A DNA stretch of 64,000 nucleotides from a virus. Location of the stretch: positions 28,915-92,914 of the IMG/VR virus record IMGVR_UViG_3300031962_000001; one strand, given 5' to 3'. Under the pieces are notes generated by a model. The model was not told the DNA's origin, did not search any database, and saw nothing but the letters and a program-made list of their open reading frames with translations. Both the position numbers and the translations under genes were made by a program. Within the stretch, counting starts at the first letter, position 1; each line of letters begins with the position of its first letter. This document shows, piece after piece, positions 15,159 through 49,503 of the stretch.

Positions 15159-15485
15159 ATGCTAGAAAACAGGGAAGTTCCAATCAGCAAGCTGACCACT
15201 GGGCAGGACTTCACGCTCGTGCTGAACGCCACTAGCAAAAGACGCATCAAAGGCCGATTAGTAGACCTCAGCTCTTGCAGCGCCACAGTGATTCTGGACA
15301 ATACTCTCAGTGAAAAGCTTCACTGGTCTACCAACAAGAGGCTTCACTGGTCCGTGAATACTCCCGTGATTCCTGGCAATAACATCAGAAAGAGATTCCC
15401 CAGAACTCCTGAGCGGTTCCCACGATCTCCGGTTTACAGATATCCGAGACTGCGAAAAGGCGAAGTGATGAGGTATCCACGATGA
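15159..15485 (+). CDS. Small protein with four C-terminal R[FY]PR repeats
   Basis: RBS; ATGA coupling to helicase. Confidence 0.7.
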   Translation: MLENREVPISKLTTGQDFTLVLNATSKRRIKGRLVDLSSCSATVILDNTLSEKLHWSTNKRLHWSVNTPVIPGNNIRKRFPRTPERFPRSPVYRYPRLRKGEVMRYPR

Positions 15486-16966
15486 TTCGCCTGTACGCTT
15501 ACGATTCGCAGACGTTCTTTGAAGGAAAGAAATACGAGCTAGAAGAGCTATACCAGTTTCTGCGTATCGAAGACAAGAACCAGTTCTGGAAGGCGCGGTA
15601 TCTTCTCAAGAAATTCGCGTATTTCAGAAGCGTCGAAGACGAAGCTAAGCGAAGCAAAGAAATCGAAAAAATCCATGAACAAGCCAAATGGATGAAATTC
15701 TACGATGGGCGCTCCAAGTCGTTCTTGTCAGGATTGCTGCCAAGAGTCTTAAAGCAGCTTAAGAAAAACGATATCCGATTCAAACTTGAAGACAACAGAA
15801 CCAAATTCGACAAGGAATTCAAGCCTATAAAGAAATTCAGCTTCGATGTAGAATTCCGTCCAGAGCAAGTCGTGGCTGTGAACGCCGCTCTGAAACGCAA
15901 GCGAGGAATTCTACACTGTGCGACAAATGCTGGCAAGACGGCGATGGCGGCAGCTATAATCACGGAATACGAAAAGCTCTTTGGTATGCCAAAAGTCCTG
16001 TATCTTGTCCACAGAGTTCAGCTTGTCAATCAGACCGCTAAGAGGTTCAAGGAATATTTCGATATTCCGGTAGAAACCATCGGCGCTGGAAAGAAGAAGA
16101 TTCCTAAGACTGGCGTTTTGTCTGCTACAGTCCAGACTGCGAGCAAGCTGCTTGACGAGGATGACAGGTTTGACAAATTTCTGGAAAATTGCAACATCAT
16201 GTTCATCGACGAGTTTCATACGAACAAGGCGAGGCTCTGCACAGAGATTGCGAAAGCCTGTTTCGCTCCGATGCGCTTCGGTCTATCAGGCACGATAGAT
16301 GAAGACAACATGGTCAAGATGATGCACTACAAGGGAATCACTGGGCCAATCGTAGCGAGAGTCAGCAATGAGGAGCTCGTAAATCTAGGAAGATCTGCTA
16401 GACCGATAGCGAGGTTCGTAGAAGTGGACGCTCCGACAGTACCGAAGAGCCTGAAATACACTGGAGCTTATAGATTCGGTATCGTGCGCAACGAAGTGCG
16501 AAATTCATTAGTGCTAAGCGAGGTGCTTGGCCATCTTGACAAGGAACGCTCGGTTCTAGTCACTGTCGCCAGAATCAAGCATGGCATTATCCTGAAGAAA
16601 TTGCTGGAATCTAAGATAGACGTGCCAGTAAAATTCTTATCTGGAAGCACGCCGATACCAGTCAGGAATAAAGTGATAGGTAAATTCAGGAAAGGGAAAG
16701 TTTCAGTGCTGATTGCAAGCCCAATCTTTGACACAGGCGTCGATATTCCAGAAATAGACAGCTGGGTCAATGCGGCCGGAGGCAAAGGCTGGGAGCTAGT
16801 CTTGCAGAGGCTTGGCAGAGTCTTGCGCAAGAAGAAAGGAGAGAATCGAGTCTACATTTCGGACTTCGTCGATAAGCACAATCGGTATTTGATGAAACAC
16901 TCGCTGGCGAGAATCGAGCACTATCAGAAGGAAAAGATTGTAGAAATAGAAATCGTCGGAGACTAA
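15482..16966 (+). CDS. Superfamily 2 helicase (UvsW-like)
   Basis: ATNAGKT, DEFH, SGT, TGVDIP and QRLGRVLR motifs. Confidence 0.9.
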   Translation: MIRLYAYDSQTFFEGKKYELEELYQFLRIEDKNQFWKARYLLKKFAYFRSVEDEAKRSKEIEKIHEQAKWMKFYDGRSKSFLSGLLPRVLKQLKKNDIRFKLEDNRTKFDKEFKPIKKFSFDVEFRPEQVVAVNAALKRKRGILHCATNAGKTAMAAAIITEYEKLFGMPKVLYLVHRVQLVNQTAKRFKEYFDIPVETIGAGKKKIPKTGVLSATVQTASKLLDEDDRFDKFLENCNIMFIDEFHTNKARLCTEIAKACFAPMRFGLSGTIDEDNMVKMMHYKGITGPIVARVSNEELVNLGRSARPIARFVEVDAPTVPKSLKYTGAYRFGIVRNEVRNSLVLSEVLGHLDKERSVLVTVARIKHGIILKKLLESKIDVPVKFLSGSTPIPVRNKVIGKFRKGKVSVLIASPIFDTGVDIPEIDSWVNAAGGKGWELVLQRLGRVLRKKKGENRVYISDFVDKHNRYLMKHSLARIEHYQKEKIVEIEIVGD

Positions 16967-17684: not shown

Positions 17685-17895
17685 CCTCACGCGTATATAT
17701 GTAGCGATCACGATCGCGTACGTGATCACGTACATAGTTCGTCCAAATTTAGCTCAGCTCGACTAAAGTCTCGCTGATACTCTAAGATATTGCTCGCTTA
17801 CTCCGTAAGCTCGCTAATATCTTAGAGTATCTTCAAATAAAGAATACGTGAACTGTCGGTAATGTAACGTGAACTCTCACAGATGTAACGCCGGG
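17685..17895. other. Palindrome-rich intergenic region, candidate replication origin
   Basis: 16-bp palindrome at 17718-17733; 16-bp inverted arms 17776-17791/17816-17831; upstream of helicase and primase. Confidence 0.5.
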
Positions 17896-18553: not shown

Positions 18554-18565
18554 TCGTGTTTCATA
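18554..18565 (+). promoter_or_regulatory. TCGTGTTTCATA motif
   Basis: Exact copy before dnaB RBS. Confidence 0.7.
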
Positions 18566-18582
18566 TAGCTAGGGAGGAAGGC

Positions 18583-19923
18583 GTGTCTGAGGAATATTCA
18601 TGGAGTGAAAGTTTTCAACGCAAGTTGCTGGCTCTATACGTCCGCATACCGAACAAAACTTTTTCGATCATAGAGCCAAGCTATTTCACGAGTCCTGTCC
18701 ACAGTGAGATAGCGAAGGTGGCTTCCAGCGTTTACAACGGACACAACAAAGCCGAAGTCAGAATCTCCAAGCCGACGCTGATTTCTCTAGTGCGAGGATA
18801 TCTCGGCAAGAAGCGAGCGGAAGTCTGGCCTGGATACCGCAAGGAAATTCGGGACATCTACGAAGACGAACTCAAAGACAAAGACGTAATCCTTGGTCAA
18901 GCTCTGGCTTTCGCAAAAGAGCAGAAGTTCAGAGAGACACTAGTCCAAGCGGAAAAGGACATCAATGCAAAGCAATTCGACAGAGCGATAGCACGCTTCG
19001 ACAAGATGAAAGGATTTGGGGAAGATAGAGACGTAGGGCTGGAATTTTGGAGGAATGTGAAAACTTCTAAGCGTTGGTTGGAAGACAGAATGGGTCTGGT
19101 GGGCACATTCTATTTCAAAAAACTCGATAAGATGATGGGCGGTGGATTGGGTGGAGGAGAGCTTGGCATTGTCTTGGCTGGCGGCAAAGTTGGCAAATCT
19201 ACGATACTCGCTAGGTTCGCGGCTGGTGCAATGTGGCAGGGGAAGAACGCCGCAATAGCGACTGGAGAACTCTCAGACAAGAAGTATCGCAAACGCATAG
19301 ACTCGATGTTCACTGTGATTCCTGGTTGGAAGCTCACGAAATACAGCAAGGGATTCATGGAAGACAACAAGAAGCTCACTAGATCTCTGGAGAAAGCGCA
19401 ACGCAGATTGGAGCTGACGAAGAAGCAGGCGAAAGGAAGCCTCTGGATAAAACAGTGGCCTACGAACAAAGGCAAAGTCTCAGACATCGAAAACTGGCTC
19501 GATGCCCTGAAAGAAAACGGAGTAGAAATTGATATTCTGTTTGTGGACTATGTCCGAGTGTTTCGGCCTAGCGAGAAATTCGATGAGCAGAGGCTCTCGA
19601 TCGGAGCGGTCTGCATGGACTTGCGTGGCATCGCAGTGGCTAGAAATATTCCTGTGTGGACAGCGGCGCAGACAAACAGAGCGGCGCTATCCAAAGCAAG
19701 CATCGGTGCGGAGGATATGGCAGAGGACATTAGCCAATTCTGGACTCTGGATTTCTTGGTAGCCTTGTGCCAAACGGAGAACGAATCGTTGAAGGACCCT
19801 GAGCGAGCAAGACTATTTCTAACGGCGGCAAGAGACGCTGGCAGAGGTGGCATTGTAAACATCAAACTGAAGCGCGACATCTTCAGAGTCTGGGAACAAG
19901 AGGACGGTAGACATAGGTCATGA
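18583..19923 (+). CDS. dnaB: DnaB-like replicative helicase
   Basis: GGKVGKS Walker A, LFVDY, TAAQTNR; GTG start after AGGGAGG. Confidence 0.88.
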   Translation: MSEEYSWSESFQRKLLALYVRIPNKTFSIIEPSYFTSPVHSEIAKVASSVYNGHNKAEVRISKPTLISLVRGYLGKKRAEVWPGYRKEIRDIYEDELKDKDVILGQALAFAKEQKFRETLVQAEKDINAKQFDRAIARFDKMKGFGEDRDVGLEFWRNVKTSKRWLEDRMGLVGTFYFKKLDKMMGGGLGGGELGIVLAGGKVGKSTILARFAAGAMWQGKNAAIATGELSDKKYRKRIDSMFTVIPGWKLTKYSKGFMEDNKKLTRSLEKAQRRLELTKKQAKGSLWIKQWPTNKGKVSDIENWLDALKENGVEIDILFVDYVRVFRPSEKFDEQRLSIGAVCMDLRGIAVARNIPVWTAAQTNRAALSKASIGAEDMAEDISQFWTLDFLVALCQTENESLKDPERARLFLTAARDAGRGGIVNIKLKRDIFRVWEQEDGRHRS

Positions 19924-20837
19924 AAGATATTTCACAATACTTCGCCAGAGTTTGGCAGACTAGGGAAGGCTGGCATGCCAACTGTCCTCGCTGCGCAGAC
20001 GGTGAAAGAAAATTCTACTGGAACGTAGACAAGGAAGTTGGATGCTGCTTCCATCACGATTGCCAGTGGTACTACAGCAAAGGCGGAGTAACTATTGCTA
20101 GGGCCTCCGCGTTCTTCTCGTCGGCTGGGCTGGCACTGCAAATCCCAGATGTGGTGGAATCAGAAGGCGAAGCAGAAGTCCAGCTACCAGAGGAATTCAA
20201 AGTCGTAGGCTCTCTGGAGCCGGAGCTCAAGGAAACGCTTTACGCCTATCTCGAGTCCAGAGACTTAGGCAAGAAAATCGTGAAGGCCGCTCGCGTCGGC
20301 TATTGCAAGTCGGGACGCTGGTGGGGATACCTGGTCTTCCCGGTCTTCAACGACGAAGGGAAAGTGGTCTACTGGCAAGGCAGACGCTTCAAGGAACGTG
20401 AACCGAAGTTCTACAATCCAAAATCTAGCCAGAAATCCGAGCTCGTGTACCGCATCAATCCAAACGTCAGGCCTCGCAAAATCGTATTGGTAGAATCCAT
20501 CATCAACACACTCACGATAGACAGCGTGCAATCTGACCCGACTGTCGTGATGGCAATCCTTGGCAGTAGTCTGTCGGAAATCCAGAAGCAATATATCCTC
20601 AGGTTTGAAAAGCGTCTCAAGGAAGTCTGCATCGCCATGGATGGAGACAAGCGCAGGGAAGGAGTCGAAATGGCAGAACAGTTTTGGGCGGCAGGCATTC
20701 GCAGTACGATAGCGCCTATACCGGATGGCGAGGACATCAACAGCCTAGGCCGGAAAGAAGCTTTGCGAAGAATTTCTCGTGCTGAGGTGTTTCATAAGGG
20801 TAGCAGGTCGGAGATCATAACTAGGAAGATCGCATGA
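19920..20837 (+). CDS. dnaG: DNA primase (Zn finger + TOPRIM)
   Basis: CPRC...CC, YLESR, YWQGR, VES, DGD, DIN motifs. Confidence 0.85.
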   Translation: MKDISQYFARVWQTREGWHANCPRCADGERKFYWNVDKEVGCCFHHDCQWYYSKGGVTIARASAFFSSAGLALQIPDVVESEGEAEVQLPEEFKVVGSLEPELKETLYAYLESRDLGKKIVKAARVGYCKSGRWWGYLVFPVFNDEGKVVYWQGRRFKEREPKFYNPKSSQKSELVYRINPNVRPRKIVLVESIINTLTIDSVQSDPTVVMAILGSSLSEIQKQYILRFEKRLKEVCIAMDGDKRREGVEMAEQFWAAGIRSTIAPIPDGEDINSLGRKEALRRISRAEVFHKGSRSEIITRKIA

Positions 20838-21106
20838 TCGACAGAAAATATCTAGCTGGGCTCTTTGACGGGAGAGGGCACATAGAACTCCTAGAAAATG
20901 GCGGGATGCGAGTGCATATTCGCATGGGCGGTGATGTACCCATGCTTCTGAAAGAGGAATTTGGCGGGACCTGTTTCAAGAACGGCAAAAAATGGTGGTT
21001 TCGGGTGCAGGGGGAAAATGCCCGTTTTCTGCTCAGCGAAATTTTGCCCTATTTGCGGGTGACCAAAAAACGGGTCAAAAAGCTGATGGCGAAAAATGGG
21101 CTGTGA
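20834..21106 (+). CDS. Short LAGLIDADG-like protein, probably non-catalytic
   Basis: YLAGLFDGRGHI with Arg at the acidic catalytic position; ILPYLR. Confidence 0.7.
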   Translation: MIDRKYLAGLFDGRGHIELLENGGMRVHIRMGGDVPMLLKEEFGGTCFKNGKKWWFRVQGENARFLLSEILPYLRVTKKRVKKLMAKNGL

Positions 21107-21136
21107 TTCGCAGAGCAGGAGCGGCGAAGAAAAGGC

Positions 21137-21165
21137 TTTACAAGGGGCTTGCCAAGTAGTATGAT
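21137..21165 (+). promoter_or_regulatory. Sigma70-type promoter
   Basis: TTTACA-17 bp-TATGAT. Confidence 0.75.
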
Positions 21166-21184
21166 TTTACTAGTGGTAGAGGTT

Positions 21185-21222
21185 AGGTTAGTTACTTAAA
21201 ACTAACTTATGTTCTTTGAAAA
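21185..21222 (+). promoter_or_regulatory. Hairpin plus boxA-like antitermination element
   Basis: Stem 21185-21193/21200-21208 followed by TGTTCTTTGAAAA (rrn boxA-like). Confidence 0.65.
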
Positions 21223-21227
21223 ATAAA

Positions 21228-22111
21228 GGTTCCAGCAAGCAAGGCCGAGCGGGGAAACGCAAACCTGCAGACTAAATGTGCCGACGCTTAACAAGGCGCA
21301 AGCATGTTACAGATACTAGGGGTAGCAAACTACCGGCAAAGTATACGCAAGGCAATAATGCTGAAAGCGCCGATTCCTGACAAGGACTTTTGTGCGCCCA
21401 CCGTAACCGTGCTGTAAGCATACCGCGCTCTGCGAAGAGCAAAATAATAAGGTGTGCGAAAGCGTGACGTGCGACTTAGGTTGCGCCGATCGCGAGGCAA
21501 TTAAGGTGTGGGCAATAGCAAACATCGGACCGTAAGTAAGCATGTTTTTTGGAACCCAAATCGCGAATGACGGTAGAAACCTCCCGTTTCTACCAGCAGG
21601 AAAACATAAAACTCTTAACCTTTATATACGCTTGCCCAGCGGGATGCCGCACCAACGGCAAGTGTAGAAGCAAATGCCTCACGGCGGGGATGCGTCCTAT
21701 AGCGTAGAGTGAGAGGGTGAAAAATATTCCAGCGTTGCGAGTCATTCGCAGGAGAGTGCAGTCGTGCAGTGTCGTTGCTTGGGGCAGTTAGTTCGCTATC
21801 CATCTCCGTGATAGCGGTGGAGGCCCGGCGATACTTGCATGTGCGATACGCTCTGGTTAGCACGCGCCACATAGAATGGAATGCGGGATCAGAAAACGGC
21901 AAAAGGATTAGTCGCTAGTCCAAGATATGAGCGAACCGTGGTATGTCCCACGTAAAATAAATGTAGTGAAATGGCACCGTTGTTTTTGGTAGTACCTAAC
22001 TTCAGCTCGCTGTCGAGAATCAGGCCCGTCAGCCACTCTGGCGGATACCGCATGAGTACTCTAGGAAAGTTCTCGACTAGCGACGTGGGAGTTCTGCTCG
22101 TCAGAATTCCC
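21228..22111 (+). ncRNA. Large structured noncoding RNA (~880 nt; GOLLD/ROOL size class, family unassigned)
   Basis: No + strand ORF in the track; nested long-range helices, many short hairpins, terminal stem 22087-22111. Confidence 0.7.
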
Positions 22112-22134
22112 TCGCCGCTTGAAAAGGCGGAAAC

Positions 22135-22144
22135 GTAGTATAAT
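22135..22144 (+). promoter_or_regulatory. Candidate -10 element for ftsK
   Basis: GTAG-TATAAT, same context as GTAG-TATGAT at 21156; TTGAAA is only 14 bp upstream. Confidence 0.45.
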
Positions 22145-22188
22145 GCTGACTAGCTAGACGCTGTCTAGCATAAAAAGGAGAAAGTGAA

Positions 22189-23619
22189 ATGAGAACCAAA
22201 GAAGAATGGCTTGAGAACCTGATGTGCTGCGAAGGCTGCAAAGTGTTGGGCGAAGGCAAAGTCGGTTGCTTCTGGAAGAAACAGCATTGTCCGTTGTGTG
22301 GCAAGGCTACTTCGAAATTCAAGAAGCTGAACGGCAAGAAGGGCGAGAAAATCCTTCGCTTCCCCCGCGAGGCTAGCACGGCAACGAAACAGCAAGTGGC
22401 GATCATGAAACAGATCAACGACCGCTGCCGCGACTTCGATTGCCCGGGAAAAGTGGTGGACGTTATCACTGGTCCCGTGGTTACCGAATACGTTTTCGAG
22501 CCTGACCGGTTCACCCGCGTCAAGAAGCTGAAGGGCCTGAACGAGGAACTTTCGCTGACACTGAGCAAGCCGGAACTCGGCATCGGCTCTGTGGAAACCG
22601 TCACCATCCGCCGCATCGCAGGCAGAGCAGCCATCGGCATCTCAGTGCCGAATCCAGACCGTAAGATGGTCAGCTTCAAGGATTGCCTGAAAAATGTCAT
22701 CGCACATCGAGACGACATGGAATTGCCGCTCAACATGGGCGTCACTTCCACGGGCGAACCTTATGTGGAGGACCTCGCCACGATGCCGCATCTGCTTATC
22801 GGTGGTAGCACTGGCACTGGCAAGTCGGTATACCTTAATGCTTTGCTGACCAGCTTGCTCTATATCCGCTCGCCGAAGCAACTCTGGCTCTACATGATCG
22901 ACCCGAAATCTGTGGAGCTCTTTCCATACAAAGGTCTGCCGCACCTCAAGCGCGACCCGGTCAACGATGTGTACGAGGCGCTCAGCGTCATGGACACGAT
23001 CGAACAGGAAATGCGCCGTCGCACTAACAACCTCCACATCAACAAAGCTAAGGATATCAAGGAACTCAACACGCGCATCAAGGGCGAGGTTGCCGAGCTC
23101 AGAAAGCAAGGCAAGGAAGAGGAAGCCAAGAAGCGCGAAGCCGATCTCTGGCCCTACATTATATTGGTCATCGATGAGATGGCTGATCTGGTGCTGGCAG
23201 AGAAGAAAATGTTCACCCAGAAGCTGGCGTGCATTTCCCAGATGGCTCGCGCCGCTGGCATCTGCATCATCAGCGCAACCCAGCGTCCGTCTGTGGACGT
23301 GCTGCCGGGAAAAATCAAGGTGAACTTCCCCGCTCGCGTCTGCTTCCGCGTGCCTAGCGCCGTGGATGGCAAGACGGTGCTGAACTACAAGGGAGCGGAA
23401 ACGCTGCTGGGCAAGGGCGACTGCTTTTTGGTGTCGCCTAACAAGGCTGGTCTCCAGCGCATCCACGTCCCCTACTGCACTCCGGCCGATCGCGACGAAA
23501 TGCTGAAAATCTCGCTGGAATTCGGGCACGTCCTGAAAGTCCCGGCGGATTCTATGGAAGTCGCCGCTCCGGTCGTGGAGAAGAAAAACGGCAAGCCTGC
23601 CTCCAAGCTGGTCAACTAG
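22189..23619 (+). CDS. ftsK: FtsK/SpoIIIE motor-domain protein with Cys-rich N-terminus
   Basis: GPVVT, MPHLLIGGSTGTGKS, IDPK, IDEMADL, ATQRPSVDV, GAETLLGKGD. Confidence 0.93.
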   Translation: MRTKEEWLENLMCCEGCKVLGEGKVGCFWKKQHCPLCGKATSKFKKLNGKKGEKILRFPREASTATKQQVAIMKQINDRCRDFDCPGKVVDVITGPVVTEYVFEPDRFTRVKKLKGLNEELSLTLSKPELGIGSVETVTIRRIAGRAAIGISVPNPDRKMVSFKDCLKNVIAHRDDMELPLNMGVTSTGEPYVEDLATMPHLLIGGSTGTGKSVYLNALLTSLLYIRSPKQLWLYMIDPKSVELFPYKGLPHLKRDPVNDVYEALSVMDTIEQEMRRRTNNLHINKAKDIKELNTRIKGEVAELRKQGKEEEAKKREADLWPYIILVIDEMADLVLAEKKMFTQKLACISQMARAAGICIISATQRPSVDVLPGKIKVNFPARVCFRVPSAVDGKTVLNYKGAETLLGKGDCFLVSPNKAGLQRIHVPYCTPADRDEMLKISLEFGHVLKVPADSMEVAAPVVEKKNGKPASKLVN

Positions 23620-48811: not shown

Positions 48812-49503
48812 TGCCAGTTCTGAACAATCGAAGAGTGACAAAGCTATTGCAAAGATTTTCTCGTCATAAGAAAGACGTGGCTCTTCGAAACAAGATAGTC
48901 GAAAAAGCCATTCCGCTCATGGACGCTGCCATCTCGCGAATGAAACTCTACAGATACAGAGACGAGTTGAAACAGGAATGCGCCTTGAAAGTCATGTACG
49001 CGCTTGGCAAATACGACAGCCACCGCGGCGACGCATTTGGATTTCTATGGACCGTCATCTGCAATACCTGTCGTACCCACGCCGAAAGACTTGGCAGACC
49101 GAACTTGTCCTTGTCCACGGACGAAGTGATACAGCGTGAGGCTGAAGCCAGCTCGTACGAAAAGTTCCAGACTCCTGAGAACCAGCATATCATAACTACA
49201 ATTCAGAGTCAGCTTGTCAAAGCGCTCAACAATCCAAATTCATTCAGACCCGCTAGGGTCAGGCTCCATAGAAAAGCCTGCAAGCGTCTGAAGAAATTTA
49301 TATCCAGTGGAGAACTGTTCTTTGATAAAAACAAAGTCGTGACCGATCTGAAGAGGATAGGCCTCGACAGAAAGGCGATTCAGTATTACATGCAATTCAG
49401 TCTCGTAGTGGTTCGCGCTCAATTATTGAAAGCGAGGGAGAACGCTGGTGCGATCGCTCATCACAAGATTGGCCAAAATTTTTCCGCAGAGCTTGACGTC
49501 TGA
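48811..49503 (+). CDS. Sigma70-like factor 2
   Basis: RNKIV...DELKQE.......KYD..RG.AF.F...V..N region 2-like. Confidence 0.65.
   Translation: MPVLNNRRVTKLLQRFSRHKKDVALRNKIVEKAIPLMDAAISRMKLYRYRDELKQECALKVMYALGKYDSHRGDAFGFLWTVICNTCRTHAERLGRPNLSLSTDEVIQREAEASSYEKFQTPENQHIITTIQSQLVKALNNPNSFRPARVRLHRKACKRLKKFISSGELFFDKNKVVTDLKRIGLDRKAIQYYMQFSLVVVRAQLLKARENAGAIAHHKIGQNFSAELDV

What the first reader, a model, noticed from the sequence alone, without database searches (positions are those of the whole stretch)
21137..22111. ~880-nt structured RNA with its own promoter and rRNA-style antitermination leader
Seen: a ~1.08-kb gap in a gene-dense genome; TTTACA-17-TATGAT; hairpin plus TGTTCTTTGAAAA. Domain-closing helices: 21228-21234/21550-21556, 21563-21571/21741-21749 and 22007-22019/22070-22083 (one bulge). 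An inner AGCATGTTAC/GTAAGCATGTT helix and a hairpin at 21572-21594 nest within these. 21753-21759 can pair with 22056-22062 as a pseudoknot, and a 10-bp stem closes the 3' end. Established: boxA protects long untranslated transcripts, and GOLLD and ROOL are large phage-associated RNAs of unknown function. Inference: a member of these or a new class, and a possible scaffold for Arg-rich tags.
Basis: partly seen in the sequence, partly recalled or inferred. Interest (0 to 1): 0.85.

Follow-up and report, generated by a model that had tools for sequence, protein, structure and literature searches.

The report
New large structured phage RNA
The 1.08-kb gene-free stretch after this soil phage's primase gene encodes a real, roughly 0.9-kb folded non-coding RNA that starts like a bacterial ribosomal-RNA operon, fits no catalogued RNA family, is shared with a few related phages through paired (compensatory) mutations, and has no known function.

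Summary
Between the stop at 21106 and the FtsK start at 22189 there is no conserved ORF. The stretch carries a sigma-70-like promoter, a hairpin and a perfect bacterial boxA, followed by about 900 nt of helix-rich RNA.

- **Homologues:** the element occurs at the same place in seven other uncultured soil or peat phages (flanking FtsK about 45-55% identical).
- **Structure:** ten helices pair significantly better within a phage than between phages.
- **3' domain model:** a covariance model gives 90.8% of cells paired (69% when shuffled), with two-sided changes in 11 of 18 pairs.
- **Known families:** Rfam 15 gives no hit for the window or the relatives, so this is not GOLLD, ROOL, OLE or an intron.
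- **Unsupported details:** The pseudoknot and the Arg-tag idea have no support.
- **New here:** boxA directly abuts the 5' strand of a long-range helix, as in rrn leaders. In relatives the loop of the 21572-21594 hairpin holds optional ORFs (a 52-aa basic protein, an HNH nuclease, a zinc-finger ORF). The window has the ORF-less, shortest form.

Function is unknown and expression could not be tested. This scan has already noted the same family on other DNA (e1-6052007, e1-6052022, e1-5354198).

The parts
21137..21165 (+). sigma-70-like promoter (TTTACA, 17 nt, TATGAT); transcription start expected near 21172
   Evidence: Consensus scan, 10 of 12 positions. The TTTAC[AT]/TTGACT box and a downstream GAT-containing hexamer align in the relatives.
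21184..21209 (+). leader hairpin (boxB-like) directly 5' of boxA: 21184-93 pairs with 21200-09
   Evidence: Predicted in 6 phages with different sequences. Native vs swapped strands -10.4 vs -6.0 kcal/mol, 0 of 265 derangements as good.
21210..21222 (+). boxA (TGTTCTTTGAAAA)
   Evidence: It is the only exact copy in the window. In about 0.9 Mb of related loci the motif occurs only at the head of this RNA. The same 20-mer lies about 60 nt upstream of 23S rRNA in two bacterial genomes.
21228..21556 (+). 5' domain closed by long-range helix P5 (21228-34 with 21550-56); rich in GNRA-type tetraloop hairpins
   Evidence: P5 homologues covary: -18.1 vs -10.7 kcal/mol, 0 of 265. An inner hairpin with a GACG-type loop covaries, 0 of 1854.
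   Evidence: Perfect 9 bp in the window. Homologous positions pair in L098, L032 and L016. The swap test is only moderate, 42 of 1854.
21572..21594 (+). hairpin (21572-80 with 21586-94, 5-nt loop); the ORF-less form of the helix whose loop carries ORFs in relatives
   Evidence: The homologous 9-13 bp helix brackets a 52-aa ORF (L002, L003, L098, L102), an HNH ORF (L016) or a zinc-finger ORF (L032): -18.5 vs -12.1 kcal/mol, 0 of 265.
21627..21666 (+). hairpin Hx with a conserved internal loop
   Evidence: Covaries, -11.5 vs -6.8 kcal/mol, 0 of 265.
21912..21960 (+). stacked hairpins H-alpha (21912-16/21930-34) and H-beta (21937-41/21948-52), followed by the conserved GUAAAAU
   Evidence: Both covary, 0 of 1854 each.
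21998..22084 (+). 3' domain D4. Closing helix 22007-19/22070-83, inner hairpin 22026-32/22038-44, and invariant unpaired UCAGGCC, GAUACCGCAUG, CUAGGAA and AGCGAC
   Evidence: Covariance model R1 finds it in 7 phages. 90.8% of cells are paired vs 69% shuffled, 11 of 18 pairs change on both sides, and slid controls give 33-54%.
22087..22111 (+). 3'-terminal hairpin (22087-96 with 22102-11)
   Evidence: Homologues covary, 0 of 44.
22113..22188 (+). trailer: CGCCGCUU..AGGCGG hairpin, a TATAAT-like hexamer (22139-44), hairpin 22153-59/22163-69, SD AGGAG 22176-80, then the FtsK ATG at 22189; no intrinsic terminator
   Evidence: Sequence and terminator scan. The CCGCU hairpin is conserved in sequence in relatives but does not covary, 13 of 44.
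20834..21106 (+). upstream neighbour conserved in synteny: a 90-aa single-motif LAGLIDADG protein
   Evidence: 28-44% identical ORFs sit at the same place in L003, L016, L032 and L098. The profile hits I-MsoI and I-CreI. The AF2 model has pLDDT 90.8 and Foldseek matches I-MsoI, I-CvuI and I-CreI at TM 0.74.

Best explanation
The + strand of 21137-22111 (probably running on into the FtsK mRNA) specifies a non-coding RNA of about 0.94 kb. It is the shortest, ORF-less member of a new family of large multi-domain RNAs. So far the family is seen only in a small clade of roughly 100-kb soil and peat phages, always just after the primase and mini-LAGLIDADG genes.

Shown here: conserved position; a leader of promoter, hairpin and boxA; at least ten helices kept by compensatory change; a modular 3' domain (D4) with invariant unpaired bases; and no match to any Rfam family.

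Inferred mechanism of synthesis: the leader works like an rrn leader. BoxA recruits host NusB-S10 and the other Nus factors, which makes RNA polymerase Rho-resistant over about 1 kb of untranslated RNA. The complex also holds the 5' strand of helix P5, which starts 5-8 nt after boxA, near the RNA exit channel until its partner emerges about 320 nt later. This is the model proposed for boxC and the 16S leader-trailer helix.

Inferred role, with lower confidence: the RNA acts as a compact folded RNA, either a scaffold or RNP or an RNA-only assembly, within the phage's replication and segregation gene block. It is not a switch for one particular gene, because the gene that follows it differs between phages. 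The molecular function is unknown.
For: - **No coding signal:** the gap has no conserved ORF.
- **Homologues:** they occur at the same locus in L002, L003, L016, L032, L098, L102 and L100.
- **Swap test:** native strand pairs are better than every between-phage swap for H0, P5, the GACG hairpin, the bracket helix, Hx, H-alpha, H-beta, D4-P1, D4-P2 and P3'. The negative control is not significant, 37 of 265.
- **D4 counts:** 90.8% paired vs 69% shuffled, 26 cells changed on both sides vs 8.2 expected, slid controls 33-54%.
- **boxA:** an exact 13-mer, unique in the window. In about 0.9 Mb of related loci it is found only at this RNA's head. The identical 20-mer precedes 23S rRNA in two bacteria.
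- **rrn parallel:** the order hairpin, boxA, long-range helix strand matches the rrn order boxB-boxA-boxC within the leader-trailer helix (PMC10250234).
- **Strand:** the + strand folds better than the - strand (z -2.85 vs -1.80), and G-U pairs occur on the + strand.
- **Known families:** no Rfam family at E <= 10 in the window or E <= 1 in six relatives.
- **Downstream gene varies:** FtsK, or ORFs of 87, 82, 243, 67 or 146 aa.
Against: - No transcript evidence could be obtained.
- There are only 7-8 distinct sequences, so no R-scape-grade statistics are possible.
- The swap test uses anchors that I chose by eye.
- There is no terminator or defined 3' end. The RNA runs straight into the ribosome-binding site of the next gene, which also fits a long operon leader.
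- L098 has only a degenerate boxA.
- L032 keeps D4's closing helix but has a different interior.
- Nus-factor binding and any trans-acting role are untested.
- The fold z-score is modest and rests on 20 shuffles.
Confidence: 0.6

Rival explanations
1. Operon leader or antitermination cassette. The functional unit is the promoter plus boxA, which loads a termination-resistant polymerase for the downstream FtsK operon. The structured RNA is a long 5' UTR that tunes stability, processing or translation in cis. In relatives the 52-aa basic protein would play an N-like role.
For: No terminator separates the RNA from the next gene, and a conserved hairpin plus SD follows directly. boxA lies at the head of the unit. 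A small basic ORF sits inside the unit in four relatives.
Against: About 900-1,400 nt of multi-domain, covarying structure with invariant unpaired cores is far more than any known leader needs. The downstream gene is not conserved. The window lacks the small ORF yet keeps the RNA. The hairpin lies 5' of boxA, which is the rrn order and not the lambda nut order. The small protein matches no family.
Confidence: 0.2
2. Replication-origin transcript. A promoter-driven structured RNA next to the primase gene acts as primer or R-loop former, as with ColE1 RNA II or T4 oriF/oriG.
For: The element sits inside the replication module, directly after helicase and primase. It has its own promoter. Earlier scan notes report boxA-led non-coding units after primase in other phages (unverified).
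Against: There are no iterons or repeat arrays. Selection acts on RNA helices and on unpaired RNA motifs across the whole length, which an R-loop primer does not require. Another first-reader note flags a palindrome-dense intergenic region at 17686-17891 as a possible origin.
Confidence: 0.06
3. Degenerate or novel mobile ribozyme (intron-like element) that hosts homing-endonuclease ORFs.
For: ORFs, including an HNH nuclease, sit in the terminal loop of a conserved helix, as in group I intron loops. A LAGLIDADG gene is adjacent. There are many GNRA loops.
Against: The element interrupts no gene: primase, the LAGLIDADG ORF and FtsK are complete, each with its own stop or start. It has its own promoter and boxA. 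It matches no group I, group II or other ribozyme model. It is syntenic rather than sporadic.
Confidence: 0.04
4. Not a functional RNA: a decayed coding region or spacer whose helices are chance.
For: The fold z-score is only -2.85, and the region is rare in databases.
Against: Ten helices pass the swap test. D4 has two-sided changes in 11 of 18 pairs. Motifs are conserved where the flanking FtsK is only about 45-55% identical.
Confidence: 0.02

Closest known systems
GOLLD (RF01998) and ROOL (RF03087), large ornate phage- and prophage-associated RNAs
   Same: A very large (>500 nt), multi-domain non-coding RNA carried by phages, with variable peripheral elements around conserved cores and no known function.
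   Different: There is no sequence or structure match to either covariance model, and no neighbouring tRNAs. This RNA has an rrn-type boxA leader, sits in a replication module, and can carry ORFs in a loop. Whether it forms oligomeric cages, as shown for GOLLD and ROOL by cryo-EM (PMC12286853, abstract seen), is unknown.
Bacterial rrn operon leader (boxB-boxA-boxC, leader-trailer helix, rrnTAC with NusA/B/E/G, SuhB, S4)
   Same: The order is promoter, hairpin, boxA, then the 5' strand of a long-range helix. The boxA sequence is identical to genuine 23S-upstream boxA copies (PMC10250234).
   Different: The RNA made is not rRNA. The long-range helix closes only a domain of about 320 nt, not the whole RNA. 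It is phage-encoded. Nus-factor dependence is inferred, not shown.
OLE RNA
   Same: A large structured RNA embedded in an operon rather than a free-standing gene with its own terminator. It may work with small proteins encoded nearby.
   Different: There is no match to the OLE model. The context is different (a soil phage, not extremophilic Firmicutes), and no OapA-like partners were found.
Group I introns carrying homing-endonuclease ORFs in terminal loops
   Same: An optional ORF, including an HNH nuclease, sits in the loop of a conserved helix, next to a LAGLIDADG gene.
   Different: The element lies in no host gene, matches no intron core, and has its own promoter.
Lambda nut sites with N protein
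   Same: It is phage-encoded and uses boxA plus a hairpin near a promoter. Some relatives carry a small basic protein gene downstream.
   Different: The hairpin precedes boxA, which is the rrn order. The window has no small protein. The RNA body is 10-20 times longer than a nut leader.

Membership tests
GOLLD RNA (RF01998) | Match to the family covariance model | tested here: not met
   No hit at gathering score in the 64-kb window, none at E <= 10 in 20900-22400, and none at E <= 1 in six homologous loci.
GOLLD RNA (RF01998) | Frequent adjacency to tRNA genes in prophages (from memory of the literature) | tested here: not met
   ARAGORN finds no tRNA or tmRNA in the window.
ROOL RNA (RF03087) | Match to the family covariance model | tested here: not met
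OLE RNA | Match to the family covariance model | tested here: not met
Group I / group II introns | Conserved catalytic core (P3-P8, or domain V) detectable by the Rfam models | tested here: not met
   No intron model hit.
Group I / group II introns | Interrupts a host gene whose exons join into one reading frame | tested here: not met
   The flanking ORFs are complete and unrelated: a LAGLIDADG ORF ending at 21106, and FtsK with its own SD and ATG at 22189.
rrn-type antitermination leader | boxA consensus shortly after the promoter | tested here: met
   TGTTCTTTGAAAA lies 45 nt after the -10 hexamer. It is conserved in 6 of 7 phages. The identical 20-mer lies upstream of 23S rRNA in L114 and L115.
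rrn-type antitermination leader | boxB-like hairpin 5' of boxA | tested here: met
   A covarying hairpin ends 0-3 nt before boxA in six phages.
rrn-type antitermination leader | Long-range helix whose 5' strand follows boxA (the boxC / leader-trailer equivalent) | tested here: met
   P5 starts 5-8 nt after boxA and covaries, 0 of 265. It encloses the 5' domain only. A whole-RNA leader-trailer pairing has only weak support, 1 of 44.
rrn-type antitermination leader | Binding of NusB-NusE and Rho-resistant transcription | not testable with these tools
   This needs biochemistry or reporter assays.
Lambda nut / N system | boxA followed by a boxB hairpin bound by an Arg-rich N protein encoded downstream | tested here: not met
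   The hairpin is 5' of boxA. The window has no small basic ORF. The relatives' 52-aa protein matches no family.

The most novel reading that the evidence does not exclude
A phage-encoded 'miniature rRNA operon'. The host's ribosomal antitermination and chaperone complex is hijacked to synthesise and fold a kilobase-sized RNA. That RNA then assembles into a higher-order particle used in the phage's DNA replication or segregation programme. It could do so alone, as ROOL and GOLLD do, or with the small basic protein or the domesticated mini-LAGLIDADG protein encoded beside it.
Probability: 0.15. Interest if true: 0.9.

Novelty: categorically new. Interest (0 to 1): 0.78.

Why it matters
Only a handful of bacterial or phage non-coding RNAs exceed 500 nt, and each has opened new biology or structural principles. 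ROOL and GOLLD nanocages and the OLE ribonucleoprotein are examples.

This family adds a class of about 0.9-1.4 kb with three unusual traits:
- it copies the architecture of an rRNA operon leader (hairpin, boxA, tethered long-range helix);
- it tolerates protein-coding cargo in one loop;
- it has a small 3' domain with invariant unpaired bases that looks like a binding pocket.

It offers a compact, non-ribosomal test bed for the idea that the boxA/Nus complex chaperones long-range RNA folding. It is also a good cryo-EM target. Unverified notes from this scan suggest that boxA-led RNAs after primase recur in unrelated phages, which hints at a wider and unstudied phage strategy.

Tried and rejected
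Relatives seen only as proteins (P0002-P0080) could therefore not be fetched.
- **Phage GenBank collection:** no DNA match.
- **First D4 pattern scan of IMG/VR:** 8 chance hits plus L002 and L003 only.
- **Expression:** no RNA holder was listed for this stretch.
- **Genome collection:** the D4 pattern gave 0 hits in 185,579 species genomes.
- **boxA 20-mer hit in an Acidobacteriota MAG (L118):** this is an unrelated inverted-repeat element.
- **MAFFT plus RNAalifold on the leader:** it mis-registered the hairpins and gave meaningless counts. I replaced it with anchor-based swap tests.
- **My interim idea that 21452-21535 is a decayed copy of the 52-aa ORF:** rejected. P5 and the conserved AUCGCG junction show that the ORF site corresponds to the 5-nt loop at 21581-85.
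- **Whole-RNA leader-trailer helix:** weak, 1 of 44, -26.0 vs -23.7 kcal/mol.
not significant, 493 of 1854. With a narrow anchor it is moderate, 42 of 1854.
- **Small basic protein:** no Pfam or PHROG family, and only 3 database relatives.
- **Literature searches:** they found no description of this RNA.

Full report
**Context.** The window is bases 28915-92914 of a 92.9-kb IMG/VR virus record estimated 68% complete. All long ORFs lie on the + strand. The finding sits in a replication block:
- DEAD/ResIII helicase (15482-16966);
- DnaB-like helicase (18556-19923);
- Toprim primase (19920-20837);
- a 90-aa ORF (20834-21106);
- the 1,082-nt gap;
- an FtsK/SpoIIIE motor protein (22189-23619).

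The closest cellular FtsK proteins are from Acidobacteria (Luteitalea), at about 43% identity. DNA runs holding the stretch are soil metagenomes.

**The observation.** The promoter TTTACA-17-TATGAT (21137-21165) is the best sigma-70-like site in the region, matching 10 of 12 positions. It is followed by a 10-bp hairpin (21184-93/21200-09) and the 13-mer TGTTCTTTGAAAA (21210-22). No + strand terminator follows the RNA. The 956-nt core folds to -326.7 kcal/mol, z = -2.85 against 20 shuffles. The reverse strand gives z = -1.80. Rfam 15 gives nothing at gathering thresholds in the whole window. At E <= 10 in 20900-22400 it gives only a chance snoRNA match, inside the FtsK gene on the other strand. 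ARAGORN finds no tRNA or tmRNA.

**Homologues.** I searched with the flanking FtsK and primase proteins in IMG/VR and JGI metagenomes. nhmmer and a covariance model then located the element. This gave seven further phages:

| Locus | Notes |
|---|---|
| L002 (=L017) | |
| L003 (=L022, L108) | |
| L016 (=L096, L097) | |
| L032 (=L106; L018 and L107 truncated) | |
| L098 | |
| L102 (probably the same phage as L103 and L101) | |
| L100 | 3' part only |

Their FtsK proteins are about 45-55% identical to the window's. In five of them a 99-107-aa homologue of the window's 90-aa ORF precedes the RNA. The gene after the RNA differs from phage to phage. Six homologous loci give no Rfam hit at E <= 1. 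The D4 motif is absent from one genome each of 185,579 prokaryotic species and from GenBank phages. The window's genome has a single copy.

**Is it a structured RNA?** Default MAFFT alignments are unreliable here. I therefore located helices by conserved sequence anchors. For each helix I compared the duplex energy of the native 5' and 3' strands with the energies obtained when the strands are swapped between phages, over all derangements.

| Helix | Derangements as good as native |
|---|---|
| Leader hairpin H0 | 0 of 265 |
| GACG-loop hairpin in the 5' domain | 0 of 1854 |
| ORF-bracketing helix | 0 of 265 |
| H-alpha | 0 of 1854 |
| H-beta | 0 of 1854 |
| D4 closing helix | 0 of 265 |
| D4 inner hairpin | 0 of 265 |
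| 3'-terminal hairpin | 0 of 44 |
| P5 | 0 of 265 |
| Hx | 0 of 265 |
| Displaced-segment negative control | 37 of 265 |
| Sequence-conserved CCGCU hairpin | 13 of 44 |

The last two rows are not significant, as expected.

As an independent, tool-made measure, I built a covariance model of D4 from four sequences. It retrieved L016, L100 and L102, which were not in the seed. On the resulting 7-sequence alignment, 90.8% of cells pair against 69.0% in shuffles. Eleven of 18 pairs change on both sides (26 cells, against 8.2 expected). Sliding the partner strand drops pairing to 33-54%. The RNA structure is therefore under selection. The caveats are that there are few sequences and that I chose the anchors by eye.

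**Architecture, in window coordinates.**
- **Leader:** promoter, H0, boxA.
- **5' domain:** P5 (21228-34/21550-56) closes a domain of about 320 nt that is full of GNRA-type loops.
- **Junction:** a conserved segment (AUCGCGA, 21559-65).
- **Bracket hairpin:** 21572-80/21586-94.
- **Central part:** That helix has homologous pairings in L098 (10 bp), L032 and L016, but the swap test gives only 42 of 1854.
- **3' part:** H-alpha and H-beta followed by GUAAAAU (21912-60), then D4 (21998-22084), then the terminal hairpin (22087-22111).
- **Trailer:** two more hairpins and the FtsK ribosome-binding site.

D4 is a closing helix around an inner hairpin. It carries invariant unpaired UCAGGCC, GAUACCGCAUG, CUAGGAA and AGCGAC. 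L032 keeps the closing helix and the 3' flank but has a different interior.

**The leader.** The exact boxA 13-mer occurs once in the window. In about 0.9 Mb of related loci, on both strands, it occurs only at the head of this RNA, in five distinct phages. L098 has a degenerate copy. The 20-mer TGYTCTTTGAMAAATAAAGG was found ten times in the genome collection. Two of those copies lie about 60 nt upstream of 23S rRNA inside rRNA operons, in a Clostridia MAG (L115) and in an unnamed bacterium (L114). The motif is therefore a genuine rrn-spacer boxA.

The order hairpin, boxA, 5' strand of a long-range helix is the rrn order boxB-boxA-boxC. In rrn operons boxC lies in the 5' strand of the leader-trailer helix. 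It is thought to be held at the RNA exit channel by boxA-NusB until the trailer emerges (PMC10250234). By analogy I infer Nus-dependent, Rho-resistant synthesis and assisted formation of P5. This is inference and was not tested.

**Optional cargo.** A column-pair scan and the swap test revealed a 9-13-bp helix that brackets different ORFs in different phages:

| Phage | Cargo in the loop |
|---|---|
| L002, L003, L098, L102 | 51-53-aa basic ORF with its own SD and ATG; 23-32% identical; no Pfam or PHROG family; only three database relatives |
| L016 | 97-aa HNH nuclease |
| L032 | short zinc-finger-like ORF |
| Window | none: the same helix is a plain hairpin with a 5-nt loop |

The window therefore carries the minimal, fully non-coding form, and the RNA does not depend on the cargo.

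**Function.** Nothing tested here reveals what the RNA does. A gene-specific riboswitch is unlikely because the downstream gene varies. An origin transcript is unlikely because there are no repeats and because selection acts on RNA helices throughout. An intron is excluded by context and by the models.

The main rival is an operon leader, because the RNA runs into the next gene without a terminator. However, its size, modularity and invariant unpaired cores fit a folded RNA with a role of its own. My estimates are:
- genuine new structured RNA family, about 0.9;
- Nus/boxA-dependent synthesis, about 0.65;
- acts as a folded RNA or RNP rather than a cis leader, about 0.6;
- forms higher-order assemblies like ROOL and GOLLD, about 0.15.

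**Earlier notes of this scan.** These are unverified AI notes. The same family was reported from the L002 genome (e1-6052007, e1-6052022) and from an L016-like genome (e1-5354198). That last note also claims the RNA accumulates in soil RNA samples, which I could not test. Boxa-led non-coding units after primase were reported in other phages (e1-5356016, e1-5843003, e1-3380119, e1-146537). I used these as leads only.

Noticed in passing
window 20834-21106: A 90-aa single-motif LAGLIDADG protein with the I-CreI/I-MsoI core fold (AF2 pLDDT 90.8, Foldseek TM 0.74). It is about 60 residues shorter than known homodimeric enzymes. It is conserved in synteny (28-44% identity) directly upstream of the RNA in five phages, which is unusual for a mobile homing endonuclease. 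It may be domesticated, perhaps in a maturase-like role. The acidic residue at the end of the motif is kept as D or E.
   Followed up: partly
L002:1916-2074, L003:2636-2791, L098:4929-5087, L102:536-697: A conserved 51-53-aa basic ORF (..G-x-x-[IV]-R-G-[LF]-x-K-[VI]..) with its own SD, encoded in the loop of a conserved RNA helix. It matches no known family and has only three database relatives. It is absent from the window.
   Followed up: partly
L016:2328-2621 and L032:3995-4312: Related HNH endonuclease ORFs (DNA-level match, E 3e-19). One sits inside the RNA's cargo loop (L016). The other lies downstream of the RNA (L032). This suggests homing-endonuclease traffic around this RNA gene.
   Followed up: no
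window 22189-22330 (FtsK N-terminus): The phage-clade FtsK proteins share an N-terminal four-cysteine module (C14, C17, C34, C37 invariant in 43 sequences) followed by a conserved RFPRE motif. They lack membrane and gamma domains.
   Followed up: no
window 22119-22144: TTGAAA and TATAAT hexamers between the RNA and FtsK, but with a 14-nt spacer. This is not a canonical promoter and it is not conserved in relatives.
   Followed up: no
window 21942-21964 vs 21208-21230: The H-beta/GUAAAAUAAAUG segment is 74% identical over 23 nt to the boxA segment (UAUGUUCUUUGAAAAAUAAAGGU). This may be a faint internal echo of the leader, or chance.
   Followed up: no
L118:4880-5180 (Acidobacteriota MAG contig): A long, nearly perfect palindromic element flanked by the boxA-like 20-mer and its reverse complement. 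It is unrelated to the phage RNA.
   Followed up: no
window 49316-49328: A one-mismatch boxA-like 13-mer (TGTTCTTTGATAA) inside a coding region. This is probably chance: 9 matches at <= 2 mismatches against 7.9 expected.
   Followed up: no
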